IMG/VR virus record: IMGVR_UViG_3300037840_000216
Coordinates: 20,468 to 84,467 of that record
Source of the DNA: a virus
DNA: 64,000 bases
Reading direction: 5' to 3' (one strand)
The position numbers were made by a program, and so were the translations under genes. Position 1 is the stretch's first letter; each line of letters begins with the position of its first letter. Under the pieces are notes generated by a model. That model had not been told where the DNA came from. It did not search any database and saw only the letters and a program-made list of their open reading frames with translations. This document shows, piece after piece, positions 19,071 to 25,089 of this stretch.

Positions 19071-19175
19071 ATGGCCTCGAAAAGAGCTTTTCAGGAAGGC
19101 GAACGGTTTGGTAGTTGGACCTTTTTGCGAGAATTTGAAATTTACCTTGGTCGGGTGGCAAAGTATCGATCATGA
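19071..19175 (+). pseudogene. Internally deleted HNH-type endonuclease stub
   Basis: GERFGSWTFLRE resembles the G..FG.LTV N-terminus of HNH/AP2 endonucleases (cf. 55019); TATACT at 19058 upstream; ATGA-coupled to the helicase. Confidence 0.55.
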
Positions 19176-21115
19176 AATATCACCTCCTTACTGATGGGCT
19201 ACTTGATAAAATCGAAATGCTTTCTCGGGATGAGCAAGAGCGATGGCTTTTCTTGTCCGAGAGCGAGGAGTTCAAAGGCCGTTGGGAAGTAAAAGGAATT
19301 TGGCCAACTTGGTTTTTTGACCTGGAGTCTATTGTGGGCCATTTCCGTACGGTTTCGCCCGCCCGTCTAAAGGATTTCATTGAGGCGTGTGACGATTATT
19401 ATCAAATAGTTTTTGAGACCCCACCAGAGTCAATTTTGACAATATATGAAGATCTACAGAACCCACCGCCTTTTGCGTTGAACTCAAATCTACCCAACAC
19501 CATTCACGGGATGTTTCCGTGGCAAGTAGAAGGCTTCAATCGGCTGATCAAAGATGAATCACTCGGGGCCGGTCTAGCGATCTGGGCCACGGGGGCTGGA
19601 AAGACTGCGTTTCTTGCTTCAGCTATCAAGTGGCATGAAACCGAGGGTCATCCATATGATCTCGCCTTGGTGGTAGTGAAGAAGAATAACAAGATTGATA
19701 TGCAGCGAAAGCTCAAAGCGCTTGCTAATCTCGATTCGTTTGTAGTGATAGGAACACCCACTAAACGCAATGCTGTCTATGACGAAATGTCTGCTCGTCT
19801 AGAGGCAAAGGAAAAAGTCATCCTCGTTACCAATTATGAGAACTTTCGTCAAGACGACGAGGCATTCAAGTGGCTGATGGAAGATCGGGACTGCTTGATC
19901 CTGTGGGATGAGATGCCTACGCGCCTGAGCAACCGTACCACACAAGTTTACGAGGCTGTGCAAAAGTGCCTTTGGAAGACCTTCCAGCCGCGCACAGGGC
20001 TCCCGACGCCTAGACCTAGCTGGATGCGTCAATGGATGCTAACAGCCACTCCGATCGAGAATAGTCCTGAAGGTCTTTTCAACCAAATTAGATTGCTAGA
20101 TCCGACGCTTCTCGGTACTGTTGGGCAATTTGAGTCCAATTACGTAGTCAATCGCAATCCCATTTCACACAAGCCGGAACGATGGGGACGGCTTGATAAG
20201 CTAGAGGGAAAGATTGAGTTCATGACACATCGCGTAAGTTTGGCCGATCCAGAAGTGGCTAAGTTGTTCCCCGAGGTCATGGAGGACACACTGATCATCG
20301 ATTGGGACCCACGGGATCGCGCCATCTACGACATGCTTGCCACAAATGCTGTCAAGATCCTCGAAGAAGAATCAGAGTCAGAAGAATTCAACGTGTTGGC
20401 GCTCATTCAAGTAATGCAGATGATGTGTGATGCGCCTTCAATGATCGGAAAGTCGGCAGAGAACCACAAAGAGTTCAAGAAAGTCCTCGCAGAGCTAGGG
20501 GGAGAAGAAGATGACATGCCGCGTCTTATGAAGGGATCGGAGATTGCTGTACGCCTGGTCGAAACGCTGCGGAAAGCGCCAACCGATGAGCGACACACTA
20601 AGTTTGAGACACTCAAAGAAATCCTCACCGAGAAACATCCCGATGACAAGGTGCTTGTATACATGACTTGGGCCTCTTATGGTTTTGAGCCGATGGAAAA
20701 GAAGCTCAACGAGTGGGGCATCAGCTATGTCGCTTACGCGGGCACAGACAAACAACGCCAGGCGGCTAAGGATGCCTTTCGTGCCGACCCTGACATTCGG
20801 GTCTTCCTATCCAGCGATAAGGGTTCGGATAGCATCGACCTCCCCGAGGCGGCTGTAGGCGTGCATTTCAATCAGCCCTGGACCTGGACTCGAAAGCAGC
20901 AGAGGGAGGGCAGGAACAACCGGGTCGATAGCTTGCTCCCGACTACGTTTTGGTACTCGTTGACGATGGCAGGCTCAGTGGAGGATCGCAAGCAGGAAAT
21001 ACTAGCGACTAAGCGTGGCTATCACGAGGCTCTCTTCGATGGCAAAGCCGCAGAGGACGCGATGGCCTCTAAGCTTTCACGCGAGGATTTGGTCTGGATT
21101 TTGACCGGCTCTTGA
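19172..21115 (+). CDS. SNF2-family (SF2) helicase
   Basis: WATGAGKT, TNYE, WDEM, LTATPIEN, SSDKGSDSIDL, QREGRNNR. Confidence 0.9.
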   Translation: MKYHLLTDGLLDKIEMLSRDEQERWLFLSESEEFKGRWEVKGIWPTWFFDLESIVGHFRTVSPARLKDFIEACDDYYQIVFETPPESILTIYEDLQNPPPFALNSNLPNTIHGMFPWQVEGFNRLIKDESLGAGLAIWATGAGKTAFLASAIKWHETEGHPYDLALVVVKKNNKIDMQRKLKALANLDSFVVIGTPTKRNAVYDEMSARLEAKEKVILVTNYENFRQDDEAFKWLMEDRDCLILWDEMPTRLSNRTTQVYEAVQKCLWKTFQPRTGLPTPRPSWMRQWMLTATPIENSPEGLFNQIRLLDPTLLGTVGQFESNYVVNRNPISHKPERWGRLDKLEGKIEFMTHRVSLADPEVAKLFPEVMEDTLIIDWDPRDRAIYDMLATNAVKILEEESESEEFNVLALIQVMQMMCDAPSMIGKSAENHKEFKKVLAELGGEEDDMPRLMKGSEIAVRLVETLRKAPTDERHTKFETLKEILTEKHPDDKVLVYMTWASYGFEPMEKKLNEWGISYVAYAGTDKQRQAAKDAFRADPDIRVFLSSDKGSDSIDLPEAAVGVHFNQPWTWTRKQQREGRNNRVDSLLPTTFWYSLTMAGSVEDRKQEILATKRGYHEALFDGKAAEDAMASKLSREDLVWILTGS

Positions 21116-21129
21116 TAGCCTGCTATACT
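21101..21129 (+). promoter_or_regulatory. Consensus sigma70-type promoter upstream of the pentamer array
   Basis: TTGACC (21101-06), 17-bp spacer, extended -10 TGnTATACT (21121-29). Confidence 0.75.
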
Positions 21130-21305
21130 CAAACTTCGTAGACGAGAGCTAGGAGATGTGCGCTGACTCTGGAAGTCGGCAGCATCCAAAGCCAAACATA
21201 CAGACAAGAGGTATCGTAATGAATATCGTTCTAGAGATAAAGGGGACCCCTGGGGTCTAAATCCGGGACGCCACCTTGGCGCTTCCCCTTCCGTGAAGCA
21301 ACTGG

Positions 21306-21358
21306 CCACGAGCCGCGCTACCAGCCGCAAAGCAAGGGAGCGCGGCTCGTGGGGTTTT
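21306..21358 (+). terminator. 14-bp perfect hairpin followed by GGTTTT (terminator or RNA-processing stem)
   Basis: CCACGAGCCGCGCT (21306-19) / AGCGCGGCTCGTGG (21339-52). Confidence 0.6.
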
Positions 21359-21381
21359 ACGTCGTCCCCAGCCCCAGCTAC

Positions 21382-21610
21382 GGCATGCAGGGCTCGGTTT
21401 GGCAGGCAGGGCGGAGCAGGGTTCGGTTGGGTCTGGTGAGGCTTGGCGGGCTTGGCTGGGCTGAGTAGGGTTGGGCTCGGTAGGGTTTGGCAGGCTTGGT
21501 TGGCGTGGTAAGGTCTGGTTAGGCACGGCGCGGTTCGGCATAGTTAGGCAGGCGAGGCAAAGCGGTGTTCGGTGAGGCTCGGTATGGCGAGGCTTGGTTT
21601 AGTGAGGCGA
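21382..21610 (+). repeat. GGY-NN pentamer array segmented by GGCA/GGCG; candidate non-coding guide-RNA array
   Basis: About 42 pentamers with constant (G/A/T)G(C/T) and variable NN; 4-nt separators at 21382, 21401, 21445, 21489, 21547. Confidence 0.9.
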
Positions 21611-22573
21611 TTTGCCAAGAAGACCGAGAAGAGCTTCAATGAGGCGTCGATAGTGCCACGTTGGTCTTGCATCGCTAGAGACAGACATCTCGGTTGCGTG
21701 AGCAAAGCGGTGTGTGATTCGAGTTGCTTTATCGACCTCATAGAAGGGCGAAGGTTCCGGGTAAGGCATTGCGGGTCCAATCGTAGCCAATAGTCGTTGA
21801 CGCGATTGCCCTTCACTAACGACTTCGACGGGCAGCGATGGGGCTCGGACCAAGGATCGATTAGGATCGGTAGCGTGGCGCACCATGTTGCGAGTGCGGA
21901 TGGGGACATCGTCTGAGAGGCTCGTGTCTGTAGTCGAGCGGAAGAAGTGGGTGAGGATTGTCGCCCGGTCTGCGGACAGAGCTTTCTCTTCCTCTTCGCG
22001 TATGGGCTCCCCCGCACGAGCGATCCAGACGCGCGTCGGCGTGCCCTCCACGGTCAGTGCGAAGTCCCCCGACGCCTCAGCTTCTTTCCGTTTCGGAGGC
22101 GTTTCGGTGTTGACTCCACGGATGCGTGGGTAGGTGTAGCCGAAGTCCACGAAGACGAGGCTGAGCGTCTTCGAGGTTGACCACTCCCGCCCGAGGGAAT
22201 CGAGCACAGTCAGGCTGATCTCTGTATCCGGGTCGGCGACCTCGTAGGTGTGCGTGACGGTCGGTCCGTGTCCGACATGTCCGTCCCCGAAGTCCCAACG
22301 GTACTCCAGGATGGTGACGCCCGGAGGCGGCTGAACGTGGGGCTGGACTTTGGATTCGACTTCGAATGGTTCCGCGTGGAACTCGACAGCGAGGAACACC
22401 GGGGTCGTGCCCCAGGCGTAGCGGTAGTCGCTGCCTTTGTCACTCGGCAGTGGAGGGTACGGATAGGTGTCGCCGTCGTACGTGGCGCTGCCTAGAGGGC
22501 CTGCCTGTTCGAAGTAGAAGTCTACGGTGACCGGAAGGGCGGGGCGGTTTGGATCGTTGACAATGGAGGTCAT
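21599..22573 (-). CDS. PKD-domain virion protein
   Basis: YRWDFGDG....GPTVTHTY......ISLTV.D PKD motif. Confidence 0.75.
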   Translation of the reverse strand: MTSIVNDPNRPALPVTVDFYFEQAGPLGSATYDGDTYPYPPLPSDKGSDYRYAWGTTPVFLAVEFHAEPFEVESKVQPHVQPPPGVTILEYRWDFGDGHVGHGPTVTHTYEVADPDTEISLTVLDSLGREWSTSKTLSLVFVDFGYTYPRIRGVNTETPPKRKEAEASGDFALTVEGTPTRVWIARAGEPIREEEEKALSADRATILTHFFRSTTDTSLSDDVPIRTRNMVRHATDPNRSLVRAPSLPVEVVSEGQSRQRLLATIGPAMPYPEPSPFYEVDKATRITHRFAHATEMSVSSDARPTWHYRRLIEALLGLLGKSPH

Positions 22574-25089
22574 TAGAACACCGCGATGTTGTGGGTGGCG
22601 TGGTTGCGTAGGCCGTTGCGGTCAATCGTAATCAGCGTGACGGCGTATTCGCCGGGGAGCGAGTAGGTGTGTTCTTCCTGAAGGCTGTTGCCCACCGAAA
22701 ACGCACCATCGCCAAAGTTCCATTCGCGTGTGACGATGGCTCCGGTGCCAGGGGTCGATTCGTCGGTGAACTTGAAGGACCTCGCTTCGATCCCTTTCGA
22801 TTTGAATTGCGCATCCGGGGGAATCAGATCCTCAAGACGTTCCTCTGGCCACACGAGCCGCCCAAGGGAGGCGTAGCGAGGTACGATCTTTGGTGTCTTG
22901 ATGGTGGCGTTCTGGCGCAGCGCTCGGGCGCGTAGCTGAAGTTCCTTGCCACGAGGCTGGAGCAGGATGCCCTTGCGGTTGACGTTGACGATCTCGCGGA
23001 AGTCCGTCCACGGTGCGTAGTTGCTGTCCCATGGGTCGCTGACGGTCGAGCGAGCGCTCCACTGCACGACACGCTCAAAGATGGACACGCTGTCGATCCA
23101 CCAGGTAGAAGCGATCTCGGTGGGCTGAAGGATCTGAACCTGGTAGTTGCCTGTCTGGAGGATCTCTTCTTCCGGCACTCGAATGATGATCTCCTGCCAC
23201 TGGTTCGTTTCGAGTTCTGGCGTCGGCAGCGGGATGATGGTGCCTTCGCTGCTCACGAGGCGCACCGCTATGTTTGGGAACTGTCTCTGGTCGAAGGTGG
23301 TGAAGCCTTTGCTCGGGAAGGTGCCTTTGCTCGGGAAGGTGCGGTGGCGGCTTGGGAAAGTCGGGCGGTGTTTGTCTTCGATGGTTTCCACGGTGCGTGG
23401 TTCGCCCGCGTACCAGATGAAGAACTTGATCTCTGCCTGCTCGAAGTTGCTGAAGTTGATAAAGTCGGTCGTGAGCCCGACGTTGTGTTCAGTGCCATTG
23501 GTGTCCACCCGGAAGCTTTCAGCGGTGAGCGCGCGCGACTTGTCGCGCGAGAGCGTGATGCCTTTAGCCGACGCCGGGGTGATCTTGAAGCCCTGGTTCC
23601 AGAGTTCTTCGTTGCCGGTGTAGCTCGCGAAGAGTTGGGCTCCATCCACGGGCGTAAAGCTGGTGAGAGGAGCGGACTGATACTCGGCGAAGACGACACC
23701 GCGCGGTCGGATCGAGCCGACGTAGGCATCGGGGTCAGGTAGGTATGCCTTCCAGCCAACGCGCCCCTGGCGGCGGCGGAAGACACCATCGTCGTTGACC
23801 AGCGTCGTGTCGAAGATCGGTGTCTGTTCTACGGACTTGTCGGGGGCAAGCTTATAGATGCGCACGCGGGCTCCCGAATCTTCGAGCGAGCAGGTCATGA
23901 GGTATTCGGTGTTGTCGAGCAGTTCAGGGAGAGCATTCGGGCCGTGGTCGGGGAAGACGTAGCCGGGGCTCACCGAGTTGTTCATGATCAGCTTTCGTTT
24001 GCCTTCGCCCCATTGTAGAGTGAAGGTGATCCAACTCTCCTCAATGGGGTTGGCCACAGGTAGACGCTCTAGGTCTTTCATCTTCTCCAGGTGGTCGAAG
24101 CGCGACATGGGCTGTTTGTCGAATTCGCCTACGGTGCGGGGGACGAACTCTTCGGTGCCGAGGTCAGGCTGCGGGTGCCCATCAAGCTCGGACTGTGTGG
24201 TCCCGATGAGGTCAAGCTGCGTCTGGAAGATTAGCGGCTCCTCGCGCATGTAGAAGACGAGTTCGTTCAGGTGTAGCTGTGAGCCAGGGTTGAAGACGAG
24301 GCCGAACTCGGCATCGACCGGCTTGGGGTCGTTGTAGCCAGGTAGGAGGTCTGACTTCCACATGATGCCCTGTTCGAGCAGCGGGCCGCTCGTCACGTCT
24401 CCGTCGAGCGGGTTGGGCTGGCGCAGCATGCCGTTGAAATTGTCGTAGTCCACCGTGGACACCACCCATCCAGGATTGCCTGGCGTGGGAGCGAGGATGA
24501 GCTTAATGCCCATGACGCCCATGTCGGTTTCTTCCCCTTCGTTGCACACGATGGTGAAGCGCACTCCGGTGATGGCTTCGAGGTCGATTTCGTTCTGCTG
24601 CAACGCCGCGCGTTCGATGACGAACTGACTGTCTCCTTCGATCAGCGCTTTGAGGCTCTCCGAGAACGAGAGGGTCGCGGTGACTGCGGTGTTCGAGCAG
24701 TGGCCTGCCGGGTCGGACGTGATTTTGATCCTGCTCTGGACGATGTTGATCGCCGGGAGGTTGAAATCGGGGAGCGCGAATGTGAAGAGGTCCGTGTCCG
24801 CAAAGCCGGTGAGCAGATCGACTGGGTGGTCCGGCGTGGCTGATTCTGTTTCCGTCGTGCCCTTGCATTCCAGAACGAGCGTTGGGAAGTAGTGGAGCGA
24901 CGAGCGGTAGGTGAATGTGCCCTCGGTCCAAGCCTCGCCCGAGGTCGGCACGAACGTGCGCAGATCAACGTGCCGCTGGAACGGCAACTGATCTTTGGTT
25001 TCCACTTCGAACGAGTCGTAGTACATCCACGCTCGCTCTGTGAACTCCTCGCCTAGAGGAACATTGGATCTTTCGCGTTCAAGTGCCAT
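22573..25089 (-). CDS. Minor tail/baseplate protein with C-terminal PKD domain
   Basis: WNFGDG.....HTY..PG.Y.VTL; CBM-like region; TFPS repeats; tail-module context. Confidence 0.75.
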   Translation of the reverse strand: MALERERSNVPLGEEFTERAWMYYDSFEVETKDQLPFQRHVDLRTFVPTSGEAWTEGTFTYRSSLHYFPTLVLECKGTTETESATPDHPVDLLTGFADTDLFTFALPDFNLPAINIVQSRIKITSDPAGHCSNTAVTATLSFSESLKALIEGDSQFVIERAALQQNEIDLEAITGVRFTIVCNEGEETDMGVMGIKLILAPTPGNPGWVVSTVDYDNFNGMLRQPNPLDGDVTSGPLLEQGIMWKSDLLPGYNDPKPVDAEFGLVFNPGSQLHLNELVFYMREEPLIFQTQLDLIGTTQSELDGHPQPDLGTEEFVPRTVGEFDKQPMSRFDHLEKMKDLERLPVANPIEESWITFTLQWGEGKRKLIMNNSVSPGYVFPDHGPNALPELLDNTEYLMTCSLEDSGARVRIYKLAPDKSVEQTPIFDTTLVNDDGVFRRRQGRVGWKAYLPDPDAYVGSIRPRGVVFAEYQSAPLTSFTPVDGAQLFASYTGNEELWNQGFKITPASAKGITLSRDKSRALTAESFRVDTNGTEHNVGLTTDFINFSNFEQAEIKFFIWYAGEPRTVETIEDKHRPTFPSRHRTFPSKGTFPSKGFTTFDQRQFPNIAVRLVSSEGTIIPLPTPELETNQWQEIIIRVPEEEILQTGNYQVQILQPTEIASTWWIDSVSIFERVVQWSARSTVSDPWDSNYAPWTDFREIVNVNRKGILLQPRGKELQLRARALRQNATIKTPKIVPRYASLGRLVWPEERLEDLIPPDAQFKSKGIEARSFKFTDESTPGTGAIVTREWNFGDGAFSVGNSLQEEHTYSLPGEYAVTLITIDRNGLRNHATHNIAVF

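What the first reader, a model, noticed from the sequence alone, without database searches (positions are those of the whole stretch)
21101..21381. Promoter, structured leader and 13-codon stub where an effector gene would be expected
Seen: TTGACC-17-TATACT; hairpin GCTGACT/AGTCGGC near 21163-21180; RBS-like AAGAGGT followed by ATG 21219 giving MNIVLEIKGTPGV*; nested stems AAGGGG/CCCCTT (21240-21290) enclosing ACCC/GGGT and CGCCA/TGGCG; then a 14-bp perfect hairpin directly before the array. Inference: the alternating hydrophobic strand ending I-x-G-T resembles the first beta-strand of RAMP/Cas7-like proteins, so the effector may have been deleted. That would leave an orphan array served in trans, or a decaying system. 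Alternatively the whole stretch is a structured ncRNA leader or attenuator.
Basis: partly seen in the sequence, partly recalled or inferred. Interest (0 to 1): 0.7.

Follow-up and report, generated by a model that had tools for sequence, protein, structure and literature searches.

The report
Broken VIPR gene before guide array
This stretch is the leftover front end (promoter plus the first ~30 codons) of a phage gene for the CRISPR-like Vipr protein, whose loss left a guide-RNA array without its protein at this locus, a situation already described in 2026 preprints for other phages.

Summary
The window is half of a ~170-kb uncultured soil phage. A 483-bp insert (21116-21598), absent from every sister phage examined, sits between the stop codons of an SNF2 helicase gene and a tail gene.

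The insert holds four parts:
- a strong sigma-70-like promoter;
- a short ORF;
- a very stable 14-bp hairpin;
- a staggered GGY-NN array of the published VIPR kind.

The "13-codon stub" is the end of a longer frame (21153-21260). This frame carries the two best matches in the whole 84-kb record to the N-terminus of a large Vipr family. They lie in one frame, in the right order, six residues apart. The combined score is 28.2 bits; the next best place scores 6.7. The rest of the gene (about 180 codons) is gone, and no Vipr gene was found in the record or in two complete sister genomes.

The last guide of the array spells a conserved helicase motif of sister phages. The phage's own copy differs by a serine codon swap.

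Half the genome is unseen, and whether transcripts pass the hairpin is unknown. VIPR-null phages with solo guides are already published, and this scan has met orphan arrays before. This is a new member of a known kind.

The parts
21101..21129 (+). Sigma-70-like promoter: TTGACC, 17-nt spacer, TATACT, with an extended -10 TG. The -35 lies in the last helicase codons; the -10 lies in the insert.
   Evidence: 10 of 12 positions. It is one of only 9 such sites on both strands of the 84-kb record. It lies about 27 nt upstream of the relic's ATG at 21156.
21116..21598 (+). Lineage-specific 483-bp insert between the helicase stop (21113-21115) and the tail-gene stop (21599-21601).
   Evidence: In sisters L010/L112 and L013 the helicase stop abuts the sequence that follows 21598 here. 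L102 shares the helicase end up to the stop.
21153..21260 (+). Truncated vipr pseudogene: an open frame of 35 codons plus the stop, with an ATG at 21156. Block 'RQHPKPNIQT' lies at 21177-21206 and block 'IVLEIKGT' at 21225-21248. The frame ends after G-T-P-G-V.
   Evidence: PSSMs from 120 family members rank both blocks first of all six-frame positions. The combined score is 28.2 bits against 6.7 for the next place. 12 of 18 aligned residues are identical to P0244.
21219..21260 (+). It is preceded by AAGAGGT at 21206-21212. Its ATG lies in a 6-residue insertion relative to the Vipr family.
21261..21381 (+). 121-nt spacer of unassigned origin between the relic and the array.
   Evidence: No similarity to 161 Vipr loci by blastn or tblastx. 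Unique in the record. The weak block matches here are no more than other 304-nt windows show.
21306..21352 (.). Perfect 14-bp GC-rich hairpin with a 19-nt loop, followed by TTTT (21355-21358) on the + strand. It is equally stable on the - strand.
   Evidence: I1.: -35.7 kcal/mol (+ strand) and -39.1 kcal/mol (- strand), with 0 of 200 shuffles folding as well on either strand.
21382..21598 (+). Staggered VIPR guide (vrRNA) array of about 45 GGY-NN pentamers. 4-nt GGCA/GGCG junctions divide it into units U0-U4.
   Evidence: The same GGCA punctuation is seen in the array beside a family-2 vipr (L139). The architecture is described in bioRxiv 10.64898/2026.04.26.720920 (legend of fig. S18).
21551..21595 (+). 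Guide U4. Its NN dinucleotides spell the helicase motif D-K-G-S-D-S-I-D-L with every third base skipped.
   Evidence: 18 of 18 in L113; the 16-base core is perfect in 12 of 23 sister loci; reversed-order control gives 0 hits; the phage's own gene matches 14 of 16.
20816..20841 (+). The phage's own helicase copy of the U4 target. The second serine is written AGC instead of TCN.

Best explanation
The stretch 21101-21381 is the beheaded front of a VIPR operon.

Shown:
- A cassette of promoter, vipr gene and staggered guide array entered this phage between the stop codons of the helicase and tail genes.
- Most of vipr is now missing. What remains is the promoter, the first ~24-34 codons of a family-2-type Vipr (with a 6-residue insertion and a premature stop just after the G-T of the first beta-strand), 121 nt of unassignable sequence with a very stable hairpin, and an intact-looking array.

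Inferred:
- In intact relatives the array starts at or within a few bases of the stop codon of vipr or of the accessory gene. It is therefore probably made from the vipr promoter. Here the retained promoter would still drive the array if RNA polymerase reads through the hairpin, which has a weak 4-U tract.
- The resulting solo guides can only act if a Vipr protein comes from elsewhere. Possible sources are the unsequenced half of this genome, a resident prophage, or a co-infecting phage. This is the mechanism proposed for published VIPR-null phages.
- Guide U4 would then silence the helicase gene of sister phages, while the phage's own copy escapes through a serine codon swap.
For: What the array is:
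- VIPR guides are GGY/NN pentamers that read DNA with one base skipped (bioRxiv 10.64898/2026.04.26.720920, Results read).
- A similar array lies next to gp19 of Gordonia phage Ecliptus. That protein matches the solved SUSP1 Vipr, 36pp_D, at E 2.7e-5.

The relic:
- A degenerate pattern for I-V-L-E-I-K-G-T-x-P had one hit in IMG/VR. The hit sits exactly on the first beta-strand of a 211-aa Vipr.
- That Vipr's family has 5560 relatives.
- The family is 99.7% probable as homologous to the Ecliptus family by profile-profile comparison. It also hits 36pp_D at E 9.7e-4.
- Family PSSMs rank the window's 'IVLEIKGT' (18.8 bits) and 'RQHPKPNIQT' (9.4 bits) first among all six-frame positions of the record. 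They share one frame and are 6 residues apart.
- The upstream block was not part of the search pattern, so it is an independent confirmation.

Operon anatomy:
- Arrays lie on the vipr strand in 80 of 81 loci of the Ecliptus family.
- In 48 of 53 loci of family 2 they lie downstream of vipr.
- In the 16 two-gene Ecliptus-family loci printed, the array starts within about 30 nt of the accessory gene's stop, with no terminator hairpin before it.
- In single-gene loci the array starts 0-15 nt after the vipr stop.

Promoter.

The insert is lineage-specific.

No Vipr gene found:
- In the record: tblastn and four profile or protein searches. One search was also blank for the record and had a positive control at E 4e-121.
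- In two complete sister genomes.

The guide looks live.
Against: - The record is only about 53% complete, so an intact vipr may lie in the missing half.
- No close relative with an intact vipr at this site was found. The deletion is inferred from the relic, not seen as a before/after pair.
- HMMER alone gives the relic no significant score (-1.1 bits over 10 residues). BLAST-type searches miss it as well.
- Family 2 was found with a pattern taken from the stub, so the score of the second block is partly circular.
- The -35 hexamer belongs to the helicase coding sequence and also occurs in sister L007. The promoter is therefore partly fortuitous.
- The strong hairpin between promoter and array could stop transcription, and no RNA data exist.
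- Three of the four full-length guides (U1, U2, U3b) have no target in anything I could search.
- The phage's own helicase still matches U4 at 15 of 18 positions. That is above the 80% cut-off the preprint used for calling targets.
Confidence: 0.7

Rival explanations
1. Dead locus. Loss of vipr inactivated the system. The promoter now makes only a short useless transcript that ends at the hairpin, and the array is a decaying remnant with no function.
For: - No Vipr gene in the 84 kb held or in two complete sister genomes.
- A very stable hairpin with a T-run lies between promoter and array.
- Unit U0 has only 3 pentamers, against 8-11 in the other units.
- Three of the four full-length guides have no target found.
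Against: - Guide U4 still matches sister helicase genes perfectly: 18 of 18 in L113, and the core 16 of 16 in 12 of 23 loci.
- 39 of 45 pentamers keep GGY (my count on the units printed).
- The promoter is intact.
- Solo guides that borrow Vipr are shown to work in E. coli satellites (bioRxiv 10.64898/2026.10.15.759431, section read).
Confidence: 0.2
2. The phage is VIPR-positive, with an intact vipr in the unsequenced half. This insert is then a satellite guide cassette placed beside its recoded target. It carries a partial duplicate of the vipr promoter and gene start, so that the guides are co-regulated with the protein.
For: - The record is 53% complete.
- The guide here sits directly beside the helicase gene it matches.
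Against: - The two complete sister genomes (169,966 and 167,869 bp) have neither a Vipr gene nor GGY-NN arrays. A vipr elsewhere would therefore need a second acquisition.
- The relic carries an insertion and a stop, so it looks decayed and not like a fresh duplicate.
Confidence: 0.15
3. The short ORF resembles Vipr by chance. The stretch is a dedicated structured non-coding leader or a leader-peptide attenuator that controls read-through into the array.
For: - The leader as a whole folds better than shuffles (z -2.98).
- A good Shine-Dalgarno-like site and an ATG precede a short ORF upstream of a terminator-like hairpin.
Against: - The two-block, in-frame, colinear match to the Vipr N-terminus is an extreme outlier in the record (28.2 against 6.7 bits).
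- No Rfam family and no tRNA-like call on the three-way fold.
- The three-way fold is not better than chance.
- The leader has no counterpart in 161 Vipr loci or in any sister phage.
Confidence: 0.05

Closest known systems
VIPR-null, solo-vrRNA phages of the SUSP1 family (Lopez et al., bioRxiv 10.64898/2026.10.15.759431; sections read)
   Same: - A phage that keeps guide arrays at the VIPR locus but has lost the vipr coding sequence.
- The guides are presumed to borrow Vipr in trans.
- The guides are aimed at competitors.
- No Vipr lies on the contig within 20 kb, which meets the authors' definition of 'solo'.
   Different: - A different Vipr clade: about 30% identity at profile level even to the Ecliptus clade, and only a distant match to SUSP1 Vipr.
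- A staggered array without the pseudoknot tails of type II.
- A ~170-kb soil phage, not an Ounavirinae coliphage.
- The published deletion removes vipr and vap1 cleanly (1,114 or about 1,421 bp). Here a recognisable N-terminal pseudogene and its promoter remain.
- No VIPR-positive near-relative is available to define breakpoints.
- The target is a core replication gene of sister phages, not vipr, another guide RNA or a satellite.
VIPR systems with staggered vrRNA arrays (bioRxiv 10.64898/2026.04.26.720920; Results and the legend of fig. S18 read)
   Same: - GGY-NN pentamers.
- Guide units that abut with a one-base overlap, seen here as 4-nt GGCA/GGCG junctions.
- The one-base-skip match falls on codon wobble positions.
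- The element is phage-borne.
   Different: - No intact Vipr gene and no accessory (vap) gene at the locus.
- I could not assign the type number (I-VII), because the classification figures and data files are supplements that I could not open.
Gordonia phage Ecliptus gp19 locus (OP820472) and the two environmental Vipr families sampled here
   Same: - The array is of the same length class and composition (68.5% identity over 161 nt).
- The array lies on the same strand downstream of vipr.
   Different: - Ecliptus has an intact 209-aa Vipr directly upstream of its array.
- The window has only the first ~30 codons, and these belong to the sister family (family 2), not the Ecliptus family.

Membership tests
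VIPR system (Vipr + vrRNA) | Gene for a Vipr protein (minimal RAMP: RRM core, G-loop, thumb) | tested here: not met
   Only an N-terminal relic of about 24-34 codons remains. There is no Vipr in the 84-kb record by tblastn, three family profiles or the SUSP1 protein. Half of the genome is unseen.
VIPR system (Vipr + vrRNA) | Tandem GGY/NN (YNNGG) pentamers, at least four units | tested here: met
   About 45 units at 21382-21598 with lag-5 autocorrelation 0.50. A pattern of seven GGY-NN repeats matches 14 times in the record and 0 times in 4 sister records.
VIPR system (Vipr + vrRNA) | Guide NN dinucleotides match a natural target under the one-base-skip rule | tested here: met
   U4 matches 18 of 18 in L113, and the core matches 16 of 16 in 12 of 23 sister helicase loci. 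The skipped bases fall on codon third positions. The reversed-order control gives 0 hits. U1, U2 and U3b have no target found.
VIPR system (Vipr + vrRNA) | Accessory vap gene next to vipr | tested here: not met
   The insert has no room for one. Only 121 nt lie between the relic and the array.
VIPR system (Vipr + vrRNA) | vrRNAs are expressed and bound by Vipr | not testable with these tools
   No RNA run holds the stretch. This needs small-RNA sequencing or a pull-down.
Staggered vrRNA array | Guide units abut with a one-base overlap and no tail or ribozyme between them | tested here: met
   4-nt GGCA/GGCG junctions at 21401, 21445, 21489 and 21547. The same punctuation occurs in the array beside a family-2 vipr, L139. 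No hammerhead or other Rfam match.
VIPR-null solo-vrRNA phage (Lopez et al. 2026) | [quoted passage not shown] | tested here: met
   The array lies at about 41.8 kb of an 84.5-kb record that has no Vipr hit.
VIPR-null solo-vrRNA phage (Lopez et al. 2026) | Deletion of vipr shown by alignment to a VIPR-positive near-relative | tested here: inconclusive
   The sister loci fetched (7 from IMG/VR, 17 from metagenomes) lack the whole insert. No VIPR-positive near-relative was found. The loss is inferred from the relic.
Vipr protein family (the ORF itself) | N-terminal strand with the I-x-G-T-x-P-L-x-x-H motif (the His contacts G1 of GGY) | tested here: inconclusive
   I-x-G-T and the preceding P-N-I-x-T block are present and top-ranked. 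The frame stops before the P-L-V-V-H part.
Vipr protein family (the ORF itself) | G-loop and thumb segments | tested here: not met
   Sliding family blocks beyond column 20 score no better in the leader than in many other 304-nt windows. The leader has 4 top-5 hits, and 23 of 556 windows have 6 or more.
Intrinsic (Rho-independent) terminator | GC-rich stem, short loop, run of at least 5 T in 8 | tested here: not met
   The stem is excellent (14 bp, -35.7 kcal/mol). The loop is 19 nt and only 4 T follow, so the scan did not call it.

The most novel reading that the evidence does not exclude
The cassette may not be wreckage. It may be a streamlined 'guns for hire' module outside the enterobacterial systems where that idea was proposed. 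In this reading a large soil phage keeps only the promoter and a staggered guide array, welded to the 3' end of its own recoded helicase gene. Guide and immune allele are then inherited together. The phage uses Vipr made by a resident prophage or a rival to shut down the helicase of sister phages in mixed infections. The serine codon swaps (TCN to AGY) seen in several sister lineages would be the footprints of that arms race.
Probability: 0.3. Interest if true: 0.55.

Novelty: new member of a known kind. Interest (0 to 1): 0.4.

Why it matters
- **Clade.** It shows that loss of vipr with retention of guides, so far reported for SUSP1-like coliphages, also occurs in a distant Vipr clade with staggered arrays, in a ~170-kb soil phage.
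- **Gene scar.** In this case the scar of the gene is still readable.
- **Natural target.** The adjacent array offers a clean natural target pair. A conserved helicase motif is written TCN in sister phages and AGC in the carrier. This could be used to test how many mismatches the gapped code tolerates.
- **Annotation.** Short ORFs between a promoter and a GGY-NN array should be checked against Vipr N-termini before being called leader peptides.

Tried and rejected
**CRISPR or Cas7 deletion in the strict sense.** Rejected. The repeats are 5-nt units, not spacer-repeat units, and no Rfam CRISPR family reached threshold.

**My first ideas for the array.** Before I found the VIPR preprints I considered a Rho loading site on the minus strand, a protein-binding DNA array, G-quadruplexes and a TRAP-like RNA sponge. 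I dropped them once the VIPR match was established.

**tRNA-like reading of the three-way fold 21240-21290.** ARAGORN finds nothing at normal or relaxed settings. The only calls, in relaxed mitochondrial mode, lie at other coordinates. The fold is not better than shuffles.

**Hammerhead or another ribozyme between promoter and array.** No Rfam match at E up to 10.

**Remnants of the middle or end of vipr in 21261-21381.**
- 'ARLVGF' at 21340 and 'YVVPSPSY' at 21358 resemble family columns 90-96 and 142-149.
- The empirical null shows that such counts of top-5 block hits are common: 23 of 556 windows have 6 or more, and the leader has 4.
- I do not claim them.

**Similarity of the leader to 161 Vipr loci.** blastn and tblastx gave only short GC-rich chance matches.

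**Leader as a repeated mobile element.** It is unique in the record.

**Search for an intact ancestor.**
- Two further degenerate patterns found nothing in IMG/VR.
- Seven IMG/VR sister loci and 15 of 17 metagenome sister loci were inspected at the junction. Two lack the helicase end. None holds a vipr or a GGY array.

**Targets of guides U1, U2 and U3b.** None with 2-3 mismatches or fewer in the phage's own record, four sister records, 23 sister loci or 161 Vipr loci. The few 3-mismatch hits equal the reversed-order control.

**Expression.** No RNA holder is listed for this stretch. The array part had no cover in run X2. Neither says anything about expression or absence.

**Supplements.** Supplements of the three preprints were not opened. 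The type assignment of these Vipr clades and the authors' lists of solo arrays may bear on novelty.
Full report
**Setting.** The window is the right-hand 64 kb of an 84,467-bp IMG/VR virus record that CheckV rates about 53% complete. Two sister phages with complete records are 169,966 and 167,869 bp. The finding lies in the gap between two convergent genes. One is an SNF2-type helicase (19172-21115, + strand; Pfam SNF2-rel_dom and Helicase_C, PHROG 62). The other is the last gene of a tail/baseplate module on the minus strand (21599-22573, PKD domain; further upstream a Baseplate_J gene).

**Observation.**
- The promoter is TTGACC-17-TATACT at 21101-21129, 10 of 12 with an extended -10 TG. It is one of only nine sites of that quality on both strands of the record.
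- The 5' hairpin (21158-21185) folds better than shuffles (z -2.63). So does the whole leader (z -2.98).
- The 14-bp perfect hairpin lies at 21306-21319/21339-21352. It is exceptional at -35.7 kcal/mol, and 0 of 200 shuffles fold as well.
- That hairpin has a 19-nt loop and only four T behind it, so the terminator scan did not call it.
- The nested three-way fold at 21240-21290 is not better than chance (z -1.25; 24 of 200 shuffles).
- No Rfam family matches, and no tRNA or tmRNA is called.
- Contigs from a second soil metagenome of another study cover 21002-21206 and 21210-21360 without a single difference. The junctions are real.

**What the array is.** The 21382-21598 tract has strict 5-nt periodicity and gives the strongest such signal in the record.
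- A blastn search found a similar unannotated tract in Gordonia phage Ecliptus, directly downstream of gp19.
- Earlier notes of this scan pointed me to three 2026 preprints on VIPR systems, which I then read.
- In VIPR, a small Cas7-like protein (Vipr) polymerises on guide RNAs made of GGY/NN pentamers. The NN dinucleotides read double-stranded DNA with every third base skipped.
- Ecliptus gp19 matches the solved SUSP1 Vipr (36pp_D, E 2.7e-5) and has 4634 relatives.
- In 80 of 81 loci of that family, GGY arrays lie on the vipr strand.
- In the 16 two-gene loci printed, the array begins within about 30 nt of the accessory gene's stop. In single-gene loci it begins 0-15 nt after the vipr stop.
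- The window's array is cut by 4-nt GGCA/GGCG junctions into units of 8-11 pentamers. This is the 'staggered' architecture of the first preprint (legend of fig. S18). It is also seen beside a family-2 vipr (L139).

**The insert.** In sisters L010/L112 and L013 the helicase stop abuts the very sequence that follows position 21598 here. L102 shares the helicase end up to the stop.
- So 21116-21598 (483 bp) is an insertion between two stop codons.
- The -35 hexamer lies in the last helicase codons and the -10 in the insert.
- None of the 7 IMG/VR sister loci, and none of the 15 metagenome sister loci that include the helicase end, has a GGY array.
- Four sister records give 0 pattern matches against 14 in the phage's own record.

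**The stub is a Vipr relic.**
- A degenerate DNA pattern for I-V-L-E-I-K-G-T-x-P had exactly one hit in IMG/VR. It fell on the first beta-strand of a 211-aa protein that follows a GGY array.
- That protein heads a second large Vipr family (5560 relatives).
- The family is homologous to the Ecliptus family at 99.7% probability (E 1.4e-25). It also hits 36pp_D (E 9.7e-4).
- Family N-termini read V-Q-I-K-P-P-N-I-[KQ]-T-A-V-F-E-I-x-G-T-A-P-L-V-V-H.
- Read upstream in the stub's frame, the window gives E-M-C-A-D-S-G-S-R-Q-H-P-K-P-N-I-Q-T-R-G-I-V-M-N-I-V-L-E-I-K-G-T-P-G-V-stop.
- With PSSMs from 120 family members, 'IVLEIKGT' (18.8 bits) and 'RQHPKPNIQT' (9.4 bits) are each the best of all six-frame positions of the record.
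- They lie in one frame, in the family's order, 6 residues apart. The combined score is 28.2 bits against 6.7 for the runner-up.
- The upstream block was not in my search pattern. The chance that the record's best match to it falls within the nine allowed offsets of the other block is roughly 5 in 100,000 (my estimate from the positions scanned).
- Twelve of 18 aligned residues equal P0244.
- Weak points remain.
- Nothing after G-T can be assigned to Vipr. The tempting 'ARLVGF' and 'YVVPSPSY' matches are within the noise of the record.
- At least about 180 codons, roughly 0.5 kb, are therefore missing. The loss is about 1 kb if an accessory gene was there.

**Is there a Vipr elsewhere?**
- Not in the 84 kb held: tblastn, profiles of both families, a merged profile and the SUSP1 protein all fail. 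One search was also blank for the record, and its positive control scored E 4e-121.
- Not in the two complete sister genomes either.
- The missing half of this phage cannot be judged.

**Does the array look alive?**
- Guide U4 (21551-21595) spells the conserved helicase motif D-K-G-S-D-S-I-D-L with the skipped bases on wobble positions.
- It matches 18 of 18 in L113 and 17 of 18 in eleven other loci. The 16-base core is perfect in 12 of 23 sister loci. Several of these are copies of the same phages from different samples. The reversed-order control gives no hits.
- The phage's own helicase (20816-20841) writes the second serine AGC instead of TCN (14 of 16).
- Other sisters carry AGC or AGT at one or the other serine (L004/L109, L102, L106, L110, L115). 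This is as expected for escape alleles.
- Guides U1, U2 and U3b have no target in anything I could search.

**Interpretation.** The best reading is a beheaded VIPR operon whose promoter and gene start survive in front of a solo staggered array.
- Shown: the identity of the array, the lineage-specific insertion, the Vipr ancestry of the short frame, and the absence of a Vipr gene in the sequence held.
- Inferred: that the promoter still feeds the array through the hairpin, and that the guides work with a borrowed Vipr.
- In the SUSP1 locus I see a GC-rich hairpin with a T-run between vap1 and the downstream guides, which are nevertheless expressed (sequence, sRNA-seq statement). Such a hairpin therefore need not silence an array.
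- The hairpin is equally stable on the minus strand (-39.1 kcal/mol). It may also insulate the two converging operons.

**Comparison and novelty.** VIPR-null phages with solo guides and a vipr-vap1 deletion are published for 346 dereplicated enterobacterial phages (methods).
- This case differs in Vipr clade, array architecture, host environment and target class, and in retaining a readable pseudogene.
- It is the same kind of thing. Earlier follow-ups of this scan report other orphan arrays and 'guide beside recoded target' cases.
- I therefore rate it a new member of a known kind, of moderate interest.

Noticed in passing
L009 5442-5540 (same contig region as L107), sister phage with 73% identical helicase: At the same helicase/tail junction this sister has its own promoter-like site (TTGACT-17-TAGAAT, overlapping the helicase stop). 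About 20 nt downstream lie five perfect GGATA pentamers within a ~45-nt period-5 tract. This may be a short non-GGY guide or just a microsatellite. The junction looks like a hot spot for such cassettes.
   Followed up: partly
window 20816-20841 and the sister loci: The U4 target motif shows serine codon switching (TCN to AGC/AGT) at either of two serines in several sister lineages and in the carrier itself. The carrier's own site still matches 15 of 18 guide positions, above the 80% cut-off used in the preprint for calling targets.
   Followed up: partly
window 21386-21400: Unit U0 of the array has only 3 pentamers between two GGCA junctions, against 8-11 in the other units. It may be a truncated guide, and so possibly the right-hand edge of the rearrangement.
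   Followed up: no
helicase homologues P0137, P0145, P0204: Some sister helicases are about 980-990 aa long and carry LAGLIDADG or homing-endonuclease Pfam domains. They are intein-containing versions of the same gene that the guide targets.
   Followed up: no
L102 4945-6773: The closest sister by the helicase end (same I-L-T-G-S stop) has quite different minus-strand genes (175 aa and 428 aa) after the helicase, in place of the PKD tail gene. The module downstream of the helicase is exchangeable.
   Followed up: no
window 23305-23342: A perfect 18-bp tandem duplication (2.1 copies) lies inside the 851-aa tail protein gene.
   Followed up: no
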